This document shows positions 3,280 through 48,024 of a stretch of 64,000 nt of DNA, piece by piece (positions within the stretch are counted from its first letter, which is position 1; the number at the start of each line of letters is the position of its first letter). Both the position numbers and the translations under genes were made by a program. The notes under the pieces were generated by a model that worked only from the letters and a program-made list of their open reading frames with translations, was not told where the DNA came from and did no database searches. The stretch covers positions 192,386,001 to 192,450,000 of the forward strand of contig OX597815.1 in NCBI GenBank assembly GCA_951406725.2, written 5' to 3'. The DNA comes from Octopus vulgaris (Eukaryota).

Positions 3280-3921
3280 GTGGAGGCGCATGACTTAGCG
3301 GTCAGGGTATTGAACTCATGATCATAAGATTGCGGTTTCAATTCCTCGACCGGGCAACACATCGTGTTCTTGAGCAAAATACCTCACTTCATATTGCTCC
3401 AGATCACTAAGCTGGCAAAAATAAGTAAACCCAGGACGGACCGGTGTGCCATCCATGAGTAAATATATACCCTACAGAAACCGGGAAACCGGCCCTTATG
3501 AGTCTATATGACTGCTTTAGCAATTCCTTCACTTGATCCCCTTCTTGTGTTTGTTATTTATGTTAATAAAAATGGTTTTTATATACTTGTTGCTTTTGTT
3601 ATTGTTGTTGTCATCTTTGTTATTGTTATTTGACCCCAGATCAGCTCTGATGGAGTCGACCTATGATGAAAGCTGTGTGAAGGCGCGTGGTTTAGTGGTT
3701 AGGGGGTTCTACTCACGATTGTAAGAATATGATGTCGATATCTGGACCGGGTGGTGCATTGTGCTCTTGAGCAAAACACTTAGTTCCTTGCTGCTCCTGT
3801 TCACTGAGCCGGTAAAAATGAGTAACCATGCGACAGACCGGAACCCGTCCAAGAGTGGGGGACATATGCCACACAACTGGGAAACTGACCTTATGAATTT
3901 ACAGGACTCAAGTAGGACTTT
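3280..3921 (+). mobile_element. Two degenerate tRNA-headed SINE family D copies (~3280-3520, ~3678-3921)
   Basis: ggcgc.tg..ttag.ggt.aggg heads and cttgagcaaaa.ac core. Confidence 0.65.
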
Positions 3922-4994: not shown

Positions 4995-5410
4995 GGCGGT
5001 GAGCTGGCAGAAACGTTAGCACGCCGGGCGAAATGCGTAGCCGTATTTCGTCTGCCGTTACGTTCTGAGTTCAAATTCCGCCGAAGTCGACTTTGCCTTT
5101 CATCCTTTCGGGGTCGATTAAATAAGTACAAGTTACGCACTGGCCTCGATATAATCGGCTAAATCCGTTTGTCTGTCTTTGTTTGTCCTCCCTGTGTTTA
5201 GCCCCTTGTGGGTAGTAAAGAAATAGGTATTTCGTCTGCTGTTACGTTCTGAGTTCAAATCCTGCAAAGGTCGACTTTGCCTTTCATCCTTTCGGGGTAG
5301 ATTAAATAAGTACCAGTTACGCATTGGGGTCGATATAATCGACTTAATCCGATTGTCTGTCCTTGTTTGTCCCCTCTGTATTTAGCCCCTTGTGGGTAGT
5401 AAAGAAATAA
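4995..5410 (+). mobile_element. SINE family A dimer
   Basis: ggcggtgagctggcagaaacgttagc head; second unit restarts at aaatag|gtatttcgtctg. Confidence 0.85.
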
Positions 5411-5446
5411 GTACGTATATAGACATTCATATACACATGAAATTAT

Positions 5447-17352: not shown

Positions 17353-17521
17353 AACAGAGAGAGGTAGACCTAAGTTCTAGACATACAAACATATATATAT
17401 ATGCACACATATATATTTGTATGCATATATATATATGTGTGTGTGTGTGTTTGTGTGTATACATGTATGTATGTGCGTATATATATATATGTGTATATAT
17501 ATGTATGTGCATGTATGTATT

Positions 17522-17594
<73 letters not shown>

Positions 17595-17595
17595 T

Positions 17596-18360
17596 CTATT
17601 TTTTTTATTATTATAAATCTTCCACTGAGAAGGGAGCTGGTTTCCATGGTCTTTTTTTGTATGCTGAGAGCTTTCTATCCAGGTCTTCTCTGAGGTCAGG
17701 GAACCAAGCTGTTTTGGGGCTATATTGGAGATCATCAGGAAGAGAGTTTTCTTGAGGAGTTCACTGCCAACTCGTACAATGTTGCACACTTCACTTTTCA
17801 GGAGTGCATTAATATTTTTATTTTTGTTGTTGTTGTTTAGCAGGTACTGCCTGAGTGATACCATACGGCATTCGAAGGCCGCCTGCACAGATCTCAGGCC
17901 TCTACCACTTTCATTTCTTCTTAGGCAGAGCCTGTCAGCATCACTGTTTCTGTGGGACTTCCCAGTTGTCAGGATTTTGCGGGTTTGATATCTATGGAGT
18001 GGATTTCCTCTACAGACCAATCAAATATCCCAAATGTTGGGATCAGCACTGGTACTGCAAATGCATTGTGGGATATTGTTTTATTGTAAGAGGAGAGTTC
18101 CGATTGCCATATTTTCCCAAGTCTGGTGTAATATTCTCGGGTCACTCTATCTTTATTCACAGTGCCTCCATATGACACATTTTCGTCTATGCCAAGGTAC
18201 TTGTAACATTCATTGTGTGGAATGGGGGAGATAGAGAGACCGTTGATGCACAAGTTTGTGGTTTGGAGGACTGACTTTCTTCCTTCTATAACTAAATATG
18301 AACATTTCTTTTGGCCAAATTCCATGCCTATATCAGGTGAAAATGTTATTAATTCCAGTT
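17596..18360 (-). mobile_element. R4/Dong-like LINE fragment (RT C-terminal region joined to 3' UTR)
   Basis: DIGMEFGQKKCS...YKYLGIDEN...SELSSYNK...AVPVL...RLCLRRNESGRGLRS across a frameshift; (CATA)n tail. Confidence 0.85.
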
Positions 18361-18399
18361 GTATGTATGCATGTATTCCAGTTGTGTGTATGTATGTAT

Positions 18400-18632
18400 A
18401 TATTTCTTTACTACCCACAAGGGGCTAAACATAGAGGGGACAAACAAGGACAGACAAAGGTATTAAGTCGATTACATCGATCCCAGTGCGAAACTTGTAC
18501 TTAATTTATCGACCCCGAAAGGATGAAAGGCAAAGTCGACCCCGGCGGAATTTGAACTCAGAACGTAACGACAGACGAAATACCGCTAAGCATTTCGCCC
18601 GGCGTGCTAACGATTCTGCCAGCTCGCCGCCT
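18400..18632 (-). mobile_element. SINE family A monomer
   Basis: Full head-to-tail match to other copies. Confidence 0.88.
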
Positions 18633-26389: not shown

Positions 26390-27640
26390 GTTCAAATTTC
26401 CCCTGAGGTCGACGTTGCCTTTTAGCCTTTCGGGCTCGACTAAATAAGTACCAGTTACCCGCTGGGTCGATGTAATCGACTTAGTCCCGTCCCCCAAGCT
26501 GCCCTTGTGGCAAAAAAATTGAAATCATTATTATTGTTATTATTATTAGATGCTGCGAGTTGGCAGATTCGTTCAGAATCTGAGTTCAAATTCCGTCGAG
26601 GAATTTGATTTTTGAACTTTGAACTTTGCCTTTCATCTTTTCGGAGTCGATAAATTAAGTACCAGTTACGCACTGGGGTCGATGTAATCGACTTAATCCC
26701 TTTGTCTGTCCTTGTTTGTTCCCTCTATGTTTAGCCCCTTGTGGGCAATAAAGATTTAAGAATCGTTAGGACGCCGGGCGAAATGCTTAGCGGTATTTCG
26801 TCTACCGAGGTCGACTTTGCCTTTCATCCTTTCGGGGTCGATAACTTAAGTACCAGTTACGCACTGGGGTCGCTGTAATCGACATAATACCTATGTCTGT
26901 CCTTGTTTGTCCCCTCTATGTTTAGCCCCTTGTGGGTAATAAAGAAATAGGTATTTCGTCTACCGAGGTCGAATTTGCCTTTCATCCTTTCGGAGTCAAT
27001 AAATTAAGTACCAGTTACGCACTGGGGTCTATGTAATCAACTTAATCCCTTTGTTTGTCTCCTCTATGTTTAGCCCCTTGTGGGCAATAAAGATTTAAGA
27101 ATTGTTAGCACGCCGGGCGAAATGCTTAGCGGTATTTCGTCTACCGAGGTCGACTTTGCCTTTCATCCTTTCGGAGTCGATAAATTAAGTACTGGGGGCC
27201 GATGTAATCGACTTAATCCGTTTGTCTGTCCTTGTTTGTCCCCTCTATGTTTAGCCCCTTGTGGGCAATAAAGATTTAAGAATCGTTAGGACGCCCGGCG
27301 AAATACTTAGCGGTATTTCGTCTACTGAGGTCGACTTTGCCTTTCATCCTTTCGGAGTCGATAAATTAAGTACCAGTTACGCACTGGGGTCGATGTAATC
27401 GACTTAATCCCTTTGTCTGTCCTTGTTTGTTCCCTCTATGTTTAGCCCCTTGTGGGCAATAAAGATTTAAGAATCGTTAGCACGCCGGGCGAAATGCTTA
27501 GCAGTATTTCGTCTACCGAGGTCGAATTTGCCTTTCATCCTTTCGGGGTCGATAAATTAAGTACTAGTTGAGTACTGGGGTCGATTACATCGACTATCCT
27601 CCTCTCCCAAATTTCAGGGCTTGTACCTATAATCGAAAGA
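26390..27640 (+). mobile_element. SINE family A tandem array (~7 units)
   Basis: gaggtcgactttgcctttcatcctttcgg.gtcgataaattaagtacc repeated at roughly 150-190-bp period. Confidence 0.88.
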
Positions 27641-39470: not shown

Positions 39471-40212
39471 GGGTGGTGAGCTGGCAGAAACGTTAGCACG
39501 CCGAACGAAATGATTTGTGGTATTTCGTCCGCCGAGGTCGACTTTGCCTTTCATCCTTTCGGGGTCGATAAATTAAGGACCAGTTACGCACTGGGGTCGA
39601 TAGAATCGACTTAATCCTTTTGTCTGTCCTTGTTTGTACTCTCTGTGTTTAGCCCCTTGTGGGCAATAAAGAAATAGGTATGTCGTCTGTCTTAATGTTC
39701 TGAGTTCAAATTCCGCCGAGGTCGACTTTGCCTTTCATCCTTTCGGGGTCGATAAATTAAGAACCAGTTACGCACTGGGGTCGATAGAATCGACTTAATC
39801 CGTTTGTCTGTCCTTGTTTGTCCTCTCTGTGTTTAGCCCCTTGTGGGCAATAAAGAAATAGGTATGTCATCTGTCTTAATGTTCTGAGTTCAAATTCCGC
39901 CGAGGTAGACTTTGCCTTTCATCCTTTCGGGGTCGATAAATTAAGTACGAGTTCCGCACTGGGGTCGATGTAATCGACTTAATATCTATGTCTGTCCTTG
40001 TTTGTTCCCTCTATGTTTAGCCCCTTGTGGGTAATAAAGAAATAGGTATTTTGTGTGCCGTTACGTTCTGAGTCGACTTTGCCTTTCATCCTTTCAGGGT
40101 CGATTAAATAAGTAACAGTTAATCACTGGGGTCGATGTAATCAACTTAATCCACTTGTCTGTCCTTGTTCGTCTCCTCTATGTTTAGCACCCTGTGTGTA
40201 ATAAAGAAATAA
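39471..40212 (+). mobile_element. SINE family A tetramer
   Basis: One head followed by four core-tail units joined at aaagaaatag|gtat. Confidence 0.88.
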
Positions 40213-42300: not shown

Positions 42301-42606
42301 TGTTGTTTGTTCCTTCTCGAGCCACGCCTGGATCATAAGGGCCGGTTTCCCGGTTTCCTTGGCGTATAGGTCCCCCACCTGGACGGGACGCCGTTCCGTC
42401 GCAAGTGAGCTACAAGATACAGGAGGAAAGAGTGAGAGAAAGTTGTGGCGAAAGAGTCAGCAGAAGTTCGCCATTACCTTCTGCCGAAGCCGCGTGGAGC
42501 TTAGGTGTTTCGCTCATAAACACACACATCGCTCGGTCTGAGATTCGAACCCGCGGTCTCTCGACCGCGAGTCCGCTGCTCTAACCACTAGGCCATGTGC
42601 CTCCAC
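42301..42606 (-). mobile_element. SINE family C variant with 13-bp TSD
   Basis: TSD gaaaataaattat at 42288-42300 and 42607-42619. Confidence 0.92.
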
Positions 42607-44551: not shown

Positions 44552-44605
<54 letters not shown>

Positions 44606-44696
44606 GTATAAGGATTGGAAGGGAACACACGAGTTGATATATATGAAAAAATAAGTCAAAATAGAAAATACTAAAATAATTTTATAAAGAACATTT

Positions 44697-44734
44697 CAGT
44701 ACCGGTTTCGGTCATTTTGAGACCTTTTCAACTG
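44697..44734 (-). ncRNA. Minimal type I hammerhead ribozyme motif, U3-A8 variant
   Basis: cag UUGAAAA gguc-ucaaaau-gacc GAAA c-cg-g UA cug; predicted cut between 44700 and 44699. Confidence 0.7.
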
Positions 44735-46639
44735 TAAGGATTAAATAATTAAATTTAGAAAAATTAAAAGAAATGTTTTTTTAAAGGAATATTTGTATAG
44801 TGTTCAAATATAAGTGGCATTTTCCTTGTTTCTGCCTTGCTCTGTCTCTCTTGTTCACACTTGTGGGTTCGAGGTCGTTGTGAATTCTTGGTAGGGAAGA
44901 AGAAGAAGGATGATGAGAAGAAGTGGAGGTATTTTGGGAGTGCCTTGATTGTTGTATTTTGAATGGTCAGTGGCGGCTAGTAGTTCATGAGAGTATTTCT
45001 ATTGAAAGGTTTGTCTATAGAATTTGCGTAGGTGTTATACTAAAAAGCATTAGTGATGAAGTTGGGACGTAGAAGGGGGAGAAGAAGAAGAGATGATGAT
45101 GGTGACGATGTTGACGCTGAAGAAGAAGTAGAAGATGATGATGATGATGAAGAAGAAGGGGAAGAAGAAGAAGAAGAAAGAGGAGGGAGAATATGAATGA
45201 GTGGAAGTAGTGAGGTGTTGTATGACTTAAAGTTGGCACGTTATGTATATATGTATATATATTCATACATATTCGTACACGCATACATACCTATATATAC
45301 ATAGACACACACAAACACACACATTATTGTCTTTGCAGGAGCATTGAGGGCCACATGTTGAAGTGATAGCAGAGCAACATGAGATGTAGTGTTTACTTCA
45401 AGAACACAAGACCGCTCTATTCGGAAATCAACCTCACGGTCTTGCAATCGTGAGTGCAACACCACCCTAACCACTCGGCCACACACACACACACACACAT
45501 TTATGTATACTTTGCTTTGGAATGGTCATGTGGCCAATTGTATCAACGCGCCAGTTATATTTTTCTTTATTTTTATAACCATTTAGATTAATCGATTAAA
45601 TTTTAATTCTGTCAAAGTTCTTTTATCACGGCCTGTGATCTTATCGATAATGTTATGCTCCTCCTACACGTTCTTTGCACTAAACTCATTGCTCTTTGCC
45701 ATGTTTTGTGGTAATTTTTATTTGTTCCGTTAGTATTTAGCGCATGTACGTACGTATTTGAGTATGAATGACTTTTATTTGTGTTGGTGGTGGTGATAGC
45801 GATCTATGTGTACTTTCGTATGTGGTGACGAATTGTGTGTATTTTCGTATGGGATGGTCAATAACTGTGTATGCATTACTCTCGCGTATATCTACGTATC
45901 TGTTTAAATATGTGTGTGTTTGAACGACCTGTTTGTGTGTTTTACTGCTTATCATGTTGTCTCCTCCGTTTTGTTTGAAGCTTGTCATTCATTTTTCTTT
46001 TTACTATTTTCTCCCTTCGCATGTGTTGCTAATAAAACGGAGTGGGATGACTCATCTCAGATATTTATCGAGGCTTATATTCATACATACACATATGCGC
46101 CTGTACACAGATATGTATAAATGCATGCATGTACGCGTGCATGCATATAAATGCATCCAAGCACCGTAGACATGCATATATTCATGTACGCATGCAAGTA
46201 TGTATAATATGTTAATCGTTATTTTTGCATTGCGATATTGTACTGTTGTAGATATCTGTTATAGATAATTTTGGATTGGATTGTTGTTGCTGTTGTTATT
46301 GTGGAGGCTTGTTATTATTCCGTTCACACTTTCTGCTATGGTGTGTGCAGTTTTAGATTATGTCTTCGAACACAACTGTGTAGGTGATGTATGTGAATCG
46401 TTACCTCGATATCGAAATCCCTCACCAACGTCCAATTATAAATTTTCACTTGAAATGCGCAGAGTTTTATAACAGACGAATGAATCCATTTTTCTATAGG
46501 GACAAACCTTAAAATTTTATGGTGTGGGGGAGGCCAGTCGATTACATAGATCCCAGTGTTCAACTGGTACTTATTTTATCGACCCCGAAAGTATGAAAGT
46601 AAAAGTCGACCAAGGCAGAATTTGAGCTCAGAAGACGGC

Positions 46640-47115
46640 TCAGTTGGCAGAAACGTTAGCACGCCGGGCGAAATGCTTAGCGGTATTTCGTCTGCCGAAG
46701 GCGGCGAGCTGGCAGAAACGTTAGCACGCCGGGCGAAATGCTTAGCGGTATTTCGTCTGCGTTACGTTGTGAGTTCAAATTCCGCTGAGGCCGACTTTGC
46801 CTTTCATCCTTTTGGGGTCGATAAATTAAGTACCAGTTACGCACTGGAGTCGATGTAATCGACTTAATCCGTTTGTCTGTCCTTGTTTGTCCCCTCTATG
46901 TTTAGCCCCTTGTGGGTAATAAAGAAATAGGTATTTCGTCTGCCGTTACGTTCTGAGTTCAAATTCCGCTGAGGCCGACTTTGCCTTTCATCCTTTTGGG
47001 GTCGATAAATTAAGTACCAGTTACGCACTGGAGTCGATGTAATCGACTTAATCCGTTTGTCTGGCCTTGTTTGTCCCCTCTATGTTTAACTCCTTGTTGG
47101 CAATAAGGAAATAAG
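46640..47115 (+). mobile_element. SINE family A dimer nested in an older opposite-strand copy (~46490-47200)
   Basis: gaatttga.ctcagaa is repeated on both sides of the insert; the head is duplicated. Confidence 0.8.
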
Positions 47116-48024
47116 AATTTGAACTCAGAATGTAAGACCAGAAGAAATGCCGCTAAGCAATTTTTTCTGTGTTCGAACGATTCTGCCAGCTCACCGCCTT
47201 ATAACAATTTCATATATAACACTGAAGCAAAATAAAAGACATTGATGACCAAATAATTTGTGCTGTATGTCGTACGTTACTAAAATTCTAGACCAAATGG
47301 CTCGGAGGGACGAAAATTTAGAACATTGCCAAATTCAAGACTAAGTACGAAACAATATGGATGAATAAAATGTCTTGCGTGGGACAACACCGTTTCGTAT
47401 TAATATGTAAATGCTAAGGTACGTTTGTTTTTGTGAGCAGGAAATAGCGTGAGGAATACAGCGTAATGTGTGTAGGAAACAGAATTGGTGAGAAAAGATA
47501 TAGTGAAGTTTACAATATAGAAGCAAAGACCAGAATGAATCCGTTCAGAATTTCTTCGTTCAGTGCACATAGTTGTCACAAAATGACACTGCTTAAGTGT
47601 CTGATATGAAAGTATATGGTTAGTTACAGGTGTTGCACTAAAACATGTAGTCAAAAGAGAAGGTGCTACAATGTAGCTTTGATATTTGACCTCCGTTTTC
47701 TGATCACAGTCGGCTAGACTCATTCTTTCATAAGCTATGATAGCTGCTAAGACGATACTGCGTAGGACTTCCGATGTGTGAGCGTTGAGGTCATAGAGAC
47801 TATTGCTGCTGCTACTAATACTAGACACACACACACACACGTACATAATACATTCATACATACATACACTGCATGTATTATGACTCGGGCAGATACCCGG
47901 GGCGCCATGTGTTACGTGATGCTAAGGAGTGCGTGACAAAAACAAGGAAATTTCCACAAACGTCATCTTGTACGCACCAAAGTTCAGCTTGCCCGGGACA
48001 CCAGCAACCTTAGGAGCGGCTCTG

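What the first reader, a model, noticed from the sequence alone, without database searches (positions are those of the whole stretch)
44697..44734. Compact hammerhead with a U3-A8 compensatory core
Minus strand reads cag UUGAAAA gguc ucaaaau gacc GAAA ccgg UA cug. Both C3 and G8 are changed, to U and A, which preserves the 3-8 Watson-Crick pair known to form in the active HHR fold. All three stems and a GUA triplet are intact. A paired double change suggests selection for activity rather than decay (inference from one copy).
Basis: partly seen in the sequence, partly recalled or inferred. Interest (0 to 1): 0.75.

Follow-up and report, generated by a model that had tools for sequence, protein, structure and literature searches.

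The report
Penelope retrotransposon hammerhead, U3-A8 core
This is one of about 2,700 copies of a hammerhead-shaped RNA motif in the end repeat of a Penelope-like jumping gene, where the swapped U-A core pair is the family norm; it likely cuts RNA only weakly and in pairs, and such a swap is already in print, so it is a new example of a known thing.

Summary
The motif is exactly as described (44734-44697, minus strand; chance 0.015 per window). It lies in a 5'-truncated end repeat (pLTR) of a Penelope-like retrotransposon with reverse transcriptase and GIY-YIG domains. U3-A8 is the family state: 2,644 of 2,703 genomic matches; C3-G8 occurs in 2. A sister family (RT about 57% identical) has different but still paired helices I and II and also keeps U3-A8, which supports selection on the fold. 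Caveats: helix III cannot close in a monomer, and this copy has no partner in the window. U3 can pair with A17, like the inhibitory C3-G17 trap. One sister subfamily spread with U3·G8. Cleavage is untested. Natural U3-A8 cores are published (PMC3088659), including about 1,300 in Schistosoma Penelope-like elements (PMC4209133). This scan noted the same kind on other genomes. Verdict: new member of a known kind; interest 0.2.

The parts
44697..44734 (-). Type I hammerhead motif with U3-A8 core, 4-bp helix II, palindromic helix III and GUA cleavage triplet
   Evidence: 2,644 of 2,703 family matches carry U3-A8
44725..44731 (-). Core box, positions 3-9; U3 = 44731, A8 = 44726
   Evidence: family counts
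44710..44724 (-). Helix II (4 bp, 7-nt loop); closing pair 10.1-11.1 is G-C here and A-U in a second subfamily
44701..44706 (-). Helix III palindrome (6 nt), predicted to pair between two copies
   Evidence: sequence; cofold and duplex energy -10.3 kcal/mol
44699..44700 (-). Predicted cleavage site, after A17 (44700)
   Evidence: inferred from hammerhead numbering; not tested
44637..45248 (-). 5'-truncated 3' end (pLTR) of a Penelope-like retrotransposon; no RT or endonuclease coding sequence left in the window
   Evidence: 93% identical over 610 nt to L041 (= L012 region), 82% over 617 nt to L034 pLTR; tblastn of the RT-EN protein against the window gave no hit at E 1e-3
44603..44636 (-). About 35-nt tail matching the leader that precedes ORF1 in full-length copies
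   Evidence: alignment to L034 ends at 44603; present in only some copies; such tails are described for PLEs in PMC8557442
44555..44610 (.). (TA)n/(TACA)n microsatellite at the 3' insertion junction
   Evidence: nearly all listed copies end in (TA)n

Best explanation
The motif is the hammerhead carried in the end repeat (pLTR) of an abundant Penelope-like retrotransposon family, with U3-A8 fixed in the family, and it likely works as a weak, dimer-dependent self-cleaving RNA that processes the element's transcripts. Shown: the anatomy, the position (about 65 nt before the 3' end, and in tandem copies about 120 nt before the likely ORF1 start), the parent element (RT, CX4CxxC linker, GIY-YIG; direct or inverted pLTRs) and U3-A8 fixation in two diverged families. 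Inferred: U3-A8 replaces C3-G8 as the tertiary core pair. Two motifs, from the two pLTRs of one transcript or from two transcripts, pair their 6-nt palindromes into a shared helix III and cut after A17, releasing unit-length RNA for retrotransposition. Activity is probably low, because U3 can instead pair with A17. The window copy is a truncated passenger with no second motif in the window and is probably inert unless paired in trans.
For: Motif and chance control. 2,644 of 2,703 matches U3-A8, 2 C3-G8, 34 non-U3, 28 non-A8; reversed-pattern controls 0. L034 has direct pLTRs, each with the motif, 4.4 kb apart around the ORFs; L036, L038 and L040 have inverted pLTRs. Pfam RVT_1 (E 2.9e-8) and GIY-YIG (E 1.5e-4) in a 784-aa ORF; linker CX4CxxC. 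Helix II 10.1-11.1 is G-C in 1,847 and A-U in 417 copies. U11.1 is in 95 of the first 100 listed rows, against CpG-type change of the helix III CCGG in 24 of 100 (hand count), so A-U is the subfamily's founding state and not CpG decay. Sister family: 7-bp helix I and 2-bp helix II of other sequence, same helix III, 628 matches, U3-A8 in 99 of the first 100 listed. No variant at 5% or more at positions 3 or 8 in contigs of four runs labelled as three organisms. Cofold of two 53-nt copies gives the double-hammerhead topology at -22.9 versus 2 x -7.7 kcal/mol. Literature: U3-A8 active in vitro and natural (PMC3088659); PLE motifs cleave only as dimers or trimers, and weakly (PMC4209133).
Against: No cleavage data. 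The same cofold and the monomer MFE pair U3 with A17, the analogue of the proposed inactive C3-G17 trap (PMC3884650). With longer flanks (20 nt upstream, 45 nt downstream) the MFE of the commonest fetched copy of each of 4 groups is not a hammerhead, and 3 of the 4 dimer MFEs are not the double hammerhead. A sister subfamily with U3·G8 and one A fewer after GU has 111 matches (99 of the first 100 listed are U3·G8) and is about 96% alike among 21 fetched copies (copies chosen by similarity), so an intact core seems not to be needed for amplification. Naiad PLEs lack canonical hammerheads and still proliferate (PMC8557442). The covariation rests on only about four lineages; copy counts are not independent events. 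No C3-G8 sister lineage was found.
Confidence: 0.7

Rival explanations
1. The motif is a hammerhead by descent but nearly silent as a catalyst. The fold, or the DNA sequence, is kept for another role (RT or chaperone binding, RNA dimerisation through the palindrome, promoter or 3'-end signal), or simply hitchhikes with active elements.
For: U3-A17 trap in predicted folds; alternative MFEs in longer context; U3·G8 subfamily with 111 matches; low in vitro activity of PLE minimal hammerheads, and the authors leave other functions open (PMC4209133); hammerheads may 'simply parasitize PLEs' (PMC8557442).
Against: Core positions 3-9, 12-15 and GUA are identical between two families whose RTs are about 57% identical while helix sequences changed completely. 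That pattern fits constraint on the catalytic core more than hitchhiking.
Confidence: 0.25
2. The U3 and A8 bases are two chance transitions in one decayed copy of a canonical C3-G8 motif, or the whole motif is a chance match.
For: Both changes are transitions; there is no Rfam hit.
Against: 97.8% of 2,703 family matches are U3-A8 and 2 are C3-G8; chance rate 0.015 per window.
Confidence: 0.01
3. This particular copy has been co-opted to process or regulate a host transcript at this locus.
For: The core is intact in this copy.
Against: The copy is 98% identical to the best other copies over 161 nt, so intactness reflects youth. There is no partner motif in the window. No host exon was identified nearby; a listing of ORFs of 150 aa or more showed mostly low-complexity frames and none overlapping the element.
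Confidence: 0.03

Closest known systems
U3-A8 variant of the minimal hammerheads in pLTRs of Cercyon Penelope-like elements of Schistosoma mansoni (Cervera and De la Pena 2014, PMC4209133; read parts 1-2 of 4 of the main text and searched 2 of 3 supplementary files)
   Same: Type I topology, U3-A8 in place of C3-G8, location in PLE pLTRs, mostly single dispersed copies (about 1,300 hits there, at least 2,644 here), U-rich 5' and AU-rich 3' flanks, need for a dimer.
   Different: Helix II is 4 bp here (7-8 bp in the S. mansoni consensus). There is no extra base between positions 9 and 10.1. Helix III has a 2-nt palindromic insert. Copies are homogeneous rather than highly variable. The host element has a CX4CxxC linker.
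PLE hammerhead variants with a small palindromic helix III (Drosophila virilis Penelope, rotifers, shrimp, mosquito; PMC4209133)
   Same: 2-nt palindromic insert in helix III, short helix I, highly similar copies from a recent expansion.
   Different: The paper reports U3-A8 only for the S. mansoni family in the parts I read; the D. virilis motif has a 6-bp bulged helix II and an intron end at helix I, for which I found no sign here.
Natural U3-A8 hammerhead core variants (Perreault et al. 2011, PMC3088659; read found passages and part 3 of 8)
   Same: The same 3-8 covariation, described there as natural and previously shown active in vitro; 2-bp helix II (as in the sister family) also noted as common.
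   Different: I did not see whether those examples are retroelement-borne or carry A17.
Neptune/Nematis-type EN+ Penelope-like elements (Craig et al. 2021, PMC8557442; read found passages only)
   Same: RT followed by C-terminal GIY-YIG, CX2-5CxxC linker, CCHH motif, pLTRs in direct and inverted arrangement, 5' truncation, 30-40-nt tail, (TA)n targets, hammerhead near the 3' end.
   Different: An upstream ORF1 is in a different frame from RT (the figure legend says ORF1 can be separated by a frameshift in some PLE types; the figure itself was not visible). The clade was not placed by phylogeny here.

Membership tests
Type I hammerhead ribozyme (dimer-dependent form) | Core NUGANNA / GAAA / UH with a Watson-Crick 3-8 pair | tested here: met
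   U3-A8 accepted as a natural variant in PMC3088659
Type I hammerhead ribozyme (dimer-dependent form) | Helices I and II can form, with covariation | tested here: met
   fold; 10.1-11.1 G-C versus A-U; different paired helices in the sister family; about four lineages only
Type I hammerhead ribozyme (dimer-dependent form) | Short palindromic helix III able to pair between two copies | tested here: met
   6-nt palindrome; cofold gives the double-hammerhead topology for the 53-nt copy; not the MFE in 3 of 4 longer constructs
Type I hammerhead ribozyme (dimer-dependent form) | Site-specific self-cleavage after N17 | not testable with these tools
   needs an in vitro assay or RNA end mapping
Rfam hammerhead families | Score at or above the gathering threshold | tested here: not met
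   0 matches in the window; not filed under an Rfam family
PLE-borne hammerheads (Cervera and De la Pena 2014) | Located in the pLTRs of a PLE | tested here: met
   both pLTRs of L034; inverted pLTRs of L036-L040
Strict min-HHR consensus of Cervera and De la Pena 2014 (fig. 2E) | Extra unpaired base between positions 9 and 10.1 | tested here: not met
   A9 is followed directly by helix II here and in the sister family; consensus read; so filed as a PLE hammerhead variant, not as the strict consensus form
EN+ Penelope-like element (parent element) | RT plus C-terminal GIY-YIG endonuclease | tested here: met
   RVT_1 34.1 bits (cut-off 29.6); GIY-YIG 22.4 bits, just under the 22.6 cut-off, E 1.5e-4
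EN+ Penelope-like element (parent element) | pLTRs, direct or inverted; 5' truncation; tail | tested here: met
Neptune or Nematis clade | CX2-5CxxC linker before GIY-YIG, and CCHH motif | tested here: met
   by inspection of the translation against the description in PMC8557442
Neptune or Nematis clade | RT phylogeny groups with the clade | not tested
   no reference PLE proteins were on hand
Non-LTR retrozyme | Short non-coding units in head-to-tail tandem, each with a hammerhead | tested here: not met
   single motif in the window, no tandem array at the site; part of a coding PLE

The most novel reading that the evidence does not exclude
U3-A8 combined with an A17 cleavage site, kept in two diverged families, is a built-in brake: a U3-A17 pair holds the ribozyme off until dimer formation or a protein frees U3. 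The shared 6-nt palindrome would also let these motifs form mixed dimers with the sister family and with a C3-G8 tandem retrozyme family in the same genome. The genome would then hold a natural series (U3-A8, U3·G8 lacking one A, C3-G8) for testing whether Penelope-like elements need hammerhead cleavage at all.
Probability: 0.15. Interest if true: 0.5.

Novelty: new member of a known kind. Interest (0 to 1): 0.2.

Why it matters
If active, it adds more than 3,200 U3-A8 hammerhead motifs in one animal genome (2,644 plus a sister set of 628) that CUGANGA-only descriptors and Rfam miss. It also gives a compact natural construct for the open question of what hammerheads do for Penelope-like elements. 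The variant itself and its host class are already described, so the gain is in distribution and in a testable set of natural variants, not in a new kind of RNA.

Tried and rejected
Rfam scan: no match.

One search used a pattern one base too short and counted only 33 deletion variants; it was repeated correctly and its count is not used.

Splice-acceptor idea (the CAG before U3 follows a U-rich tract, as at the D. virilis intron end): no joint at this site in contigs of four runs, which cannot show absence, and the sister family has no AG there. Dropped.

Expression: no RNA holder listed on record; the runs guessed to be RNA are contigs and show neither ends nor strand.

RNA editing of the core: no listed difference at the core in the 40 rows shown (26 rows not shown). 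Dropped.

Search for a C3-G8 sister of the family: a pattern with the same helix I and III but other helix II gave 171 matches, and the first 100 listed are mutated family copies bar one. A C3-G8 pattern with the same helix III gave 170 matches against 24 in the control; most of the first 100 listed are an unrelated 359-bp tandem family with no blastn match to the PLE.

The 2 C3-G8 copies exceed the 0.14 expected if sites change independently (P 0.009, from hand counts of 19 C3 and 20 G8). One of them (L031) is the inverted partner of a U3-A8 copy, so it likely arose at or after insertion. Unequal copy ages could explain the excess; not pursued.

Metagenome search for RT relatives: none confirmed. 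Scan look-up by sequence: nothing.

Two primary papers recalled as relevant (3-8 pair exchange, 2007; PLE hammerhead dimers, 2017) are not held and were not read. Term searches for the variant found only PMC4209133 and PMC3884650. No paper on this motif in cephalopods turned up, but one supplementary file of PMC4209133 and bioRxiv supplements could not be searched and subscription papers are missing, so absence from print is not established.

Full report
Observation. U3 is at 44731, A8 at 44726, and A17 at 44700. A descriptor scan with positions 3, 7 and 8 free found only this site in the window, against 0.015 hits per window with a Watson-Crick 3-8 pair in 200 shuffles. Rfam gave 0 matches. 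Helix III is 2 bp around a 2-nt loop, so it cannot close within one molecule; its 6 bases form a palindrome.

What it sits in. A 161-nt query gave 1,269 candidates in the own genome (2.8 Gb, 227 contigs), of which 40 were scored, the best at 98% identity. The window copy aligns to longer copies from about 45248 to 44637, followed by a tail to about 44603 and a (TA)n tract. Longer copies continue upstream into coding sequence. Of 11 stretches fetched around motif pairs or long copies, L034 holds a complete unit with direct repeats, each carrying the motif, 4.4 kb apart, and L036, L038 and L040 have inverted repeats of about 1 kb. A 784-aa ORF in L037 matches Pfam RVT_1 (E 2.9e-8) and GIY-YIG (E 1.5e-4, 0.2 bits under the cut-off), with a CX4CxxC linker. 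These are the features of Neptune/Nematis-type Penelope-like elements as described in PMC8557442 (passages); I did not place the clade by phylogeny. The window itself holds no RT or endonuclease sequence and no second motif.

Is U3-A8 the family state? Yes. With positions 3, 7, 8 and 10.1 free, 2,703 places match and the reversed-pattern control is 0. Of these, 2,644 are U3-A8, 2 are C3-G8, 34 lack U3 and 28 lack A8; 3 are changed at both, which closes the sum. These patterns fix the rest of the motif, so they count only well-preserved copies. Contigs from four runs labelled as three organisms show no variant at 5% or more at positions 3 or 8 (contigs laid at 85% identity or more).

Is the fold under selection? 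Copy numbers cannot show this; lineage differences can. Among the 2,644, pair 10.1-11.1 is G-C in 1,847 and A-U in 417, nearly all of the listed ones with a 5-nt loop; the other 380 were not classified. In the short-loop subfamily U11.1 stands in 95 of the first 100 listed rows, while the neighbouring CpG in helix III is changed in 24 (hand count), so A-U is a founding, compensatory state. A sister family was found directly behind L034: ORF1 42% and RT about 55-58% identical. Its motif has a 7-bp helix I and a 2-bp helix II of different sequence, the same helix III and GUA, and U3-A8 in 99 of the first 100 listed of 628 matches. Against this, a second sister subfamily has U3·G8 and one A fewer after GU (111 matches, 99 of the first 100 listed), and its 21 fetched copies are about 96% alike (chosen by similarity). 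The evidence rests on about four lineages, and no C3-G8 sister lineage was found, so the swap itself was not caught within this group.

How it likely works. Two 53-nt copies cofold into the double-hammerhead topology with a shared 6-bp helix III at -22.9 kcal/mol, against -7.7 for each monomer. From PMC4209133 (parts 1-2 of 4), PLE minimal hammerheads show no cleavage as monomers and low cleavage as dimers or trimers, and the proposed role is cutting the precursor RNA. By that model (inferred), motifs in the two pLTRs, or in two transcripts, pair and cut after A17. This mirrors the proposed inactive C3-G17 pair, which lowered rates 8- to 100-fold in tested ribozymes (PMC3884650, passages). With longer flanks the MFE is not a hammerhead for the commonest fetched copy of any of four groups, and 3 of the 4 dimer MFEs are not the double hammerhead. 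I put about 0.95 on the identity as a PLE pLTR hammerhead motif, 0.7 on weak dimer-dependent cleavage as its role, 0.25 on a nearly silent or non-catalytic role, and little on decay or host use.

Comparison with what is known. Natural C3-G8 to U3-A8 covariation was reported in 2011, with a note that such ribozymes had been shown active in vitro (PMC3088659, passages and part 3 of 8). It was reported in PLE pLTRs in 2014, with about 1,300 hits in S. mansoni (PMC4209133). This motif differs from the strict consensus there in lacking the extra base after position 9 and in its 4-bp helix II, and resembles the variants with a small palindromic helix III. Searches found no paper on it in cephalopods, but some supplements and subscription papers could not be seen. 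The scan's own notes list seven similar findings on other genomes, all filed under the same known kind; I had reached that reading before looking.

Verdict. New member of a known kind; interest 0.2.

Noticed in passing
L034:3857-3917 (-), L037, L038, L039; sister family L111:5180-5351 (-): In both families an ORF1 of 410-450 aa (no Pfam match for the L034 one) overlaps the RT ORF in the -1 frame, and a T TTT TTA heptamer in ORF1's frame is kept in the overlap (4 of 4 copies that span it, plus the sister copy). It is a candidate -1 frameshift site, or a splice acceptor; no downstream structure is predicted in the four main-family copies folded. PMC8557442 (fig. 1 legend) says ORF1 can be separated by a frameshift in some PLEs.
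   Followed up: partly
L081-L111; G000, 111 matches: A sister PLE subfamily spread with a U3·G8 core and one A fewer at the cleavage site: either a disabled hammerhead or a shifted register.
   Followed up: partly
L046-L068 (e.g. G000:C1:20002278-20004542): A 359-bp head-to-tail tandem family with a canonical C3-G8 hammerhead and the same helix III palindrome, retrozyme-like; no blastn match to the PLE.
   Followed up: partly
L034:1-783 and L111: A sister-family element begins about 40 nt after the motif in the 3' pLTR of L034, cutting that pLTR short: two PLE families joined in tandem.
   Followed up: partly
L031:1261-1536: An inverted pair in which one arm has C3-G8 and the other U3-A8.
   Followed up: partly
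window 5043-5413, 26950-27595, 39528-40211, 46747-47120: A dispersed repeat of about 184 bp occurs as short tandem arrays four times in the window; SINE-like by recall, not tested.
   Followed up: no
window 17370-18424 (-): Two adjacent frames of 216 and 151 aa look like a fragment of a LINE-type reverse transcriptase gene by eye; not tested.
   Followed up: no
window 3477-3493 (+) and 42341-42357 (-): A doubled GAAACCGG motif occurs in another dispersed repeat; it does not pass the hammerhead descriptor.
   Followed up: no
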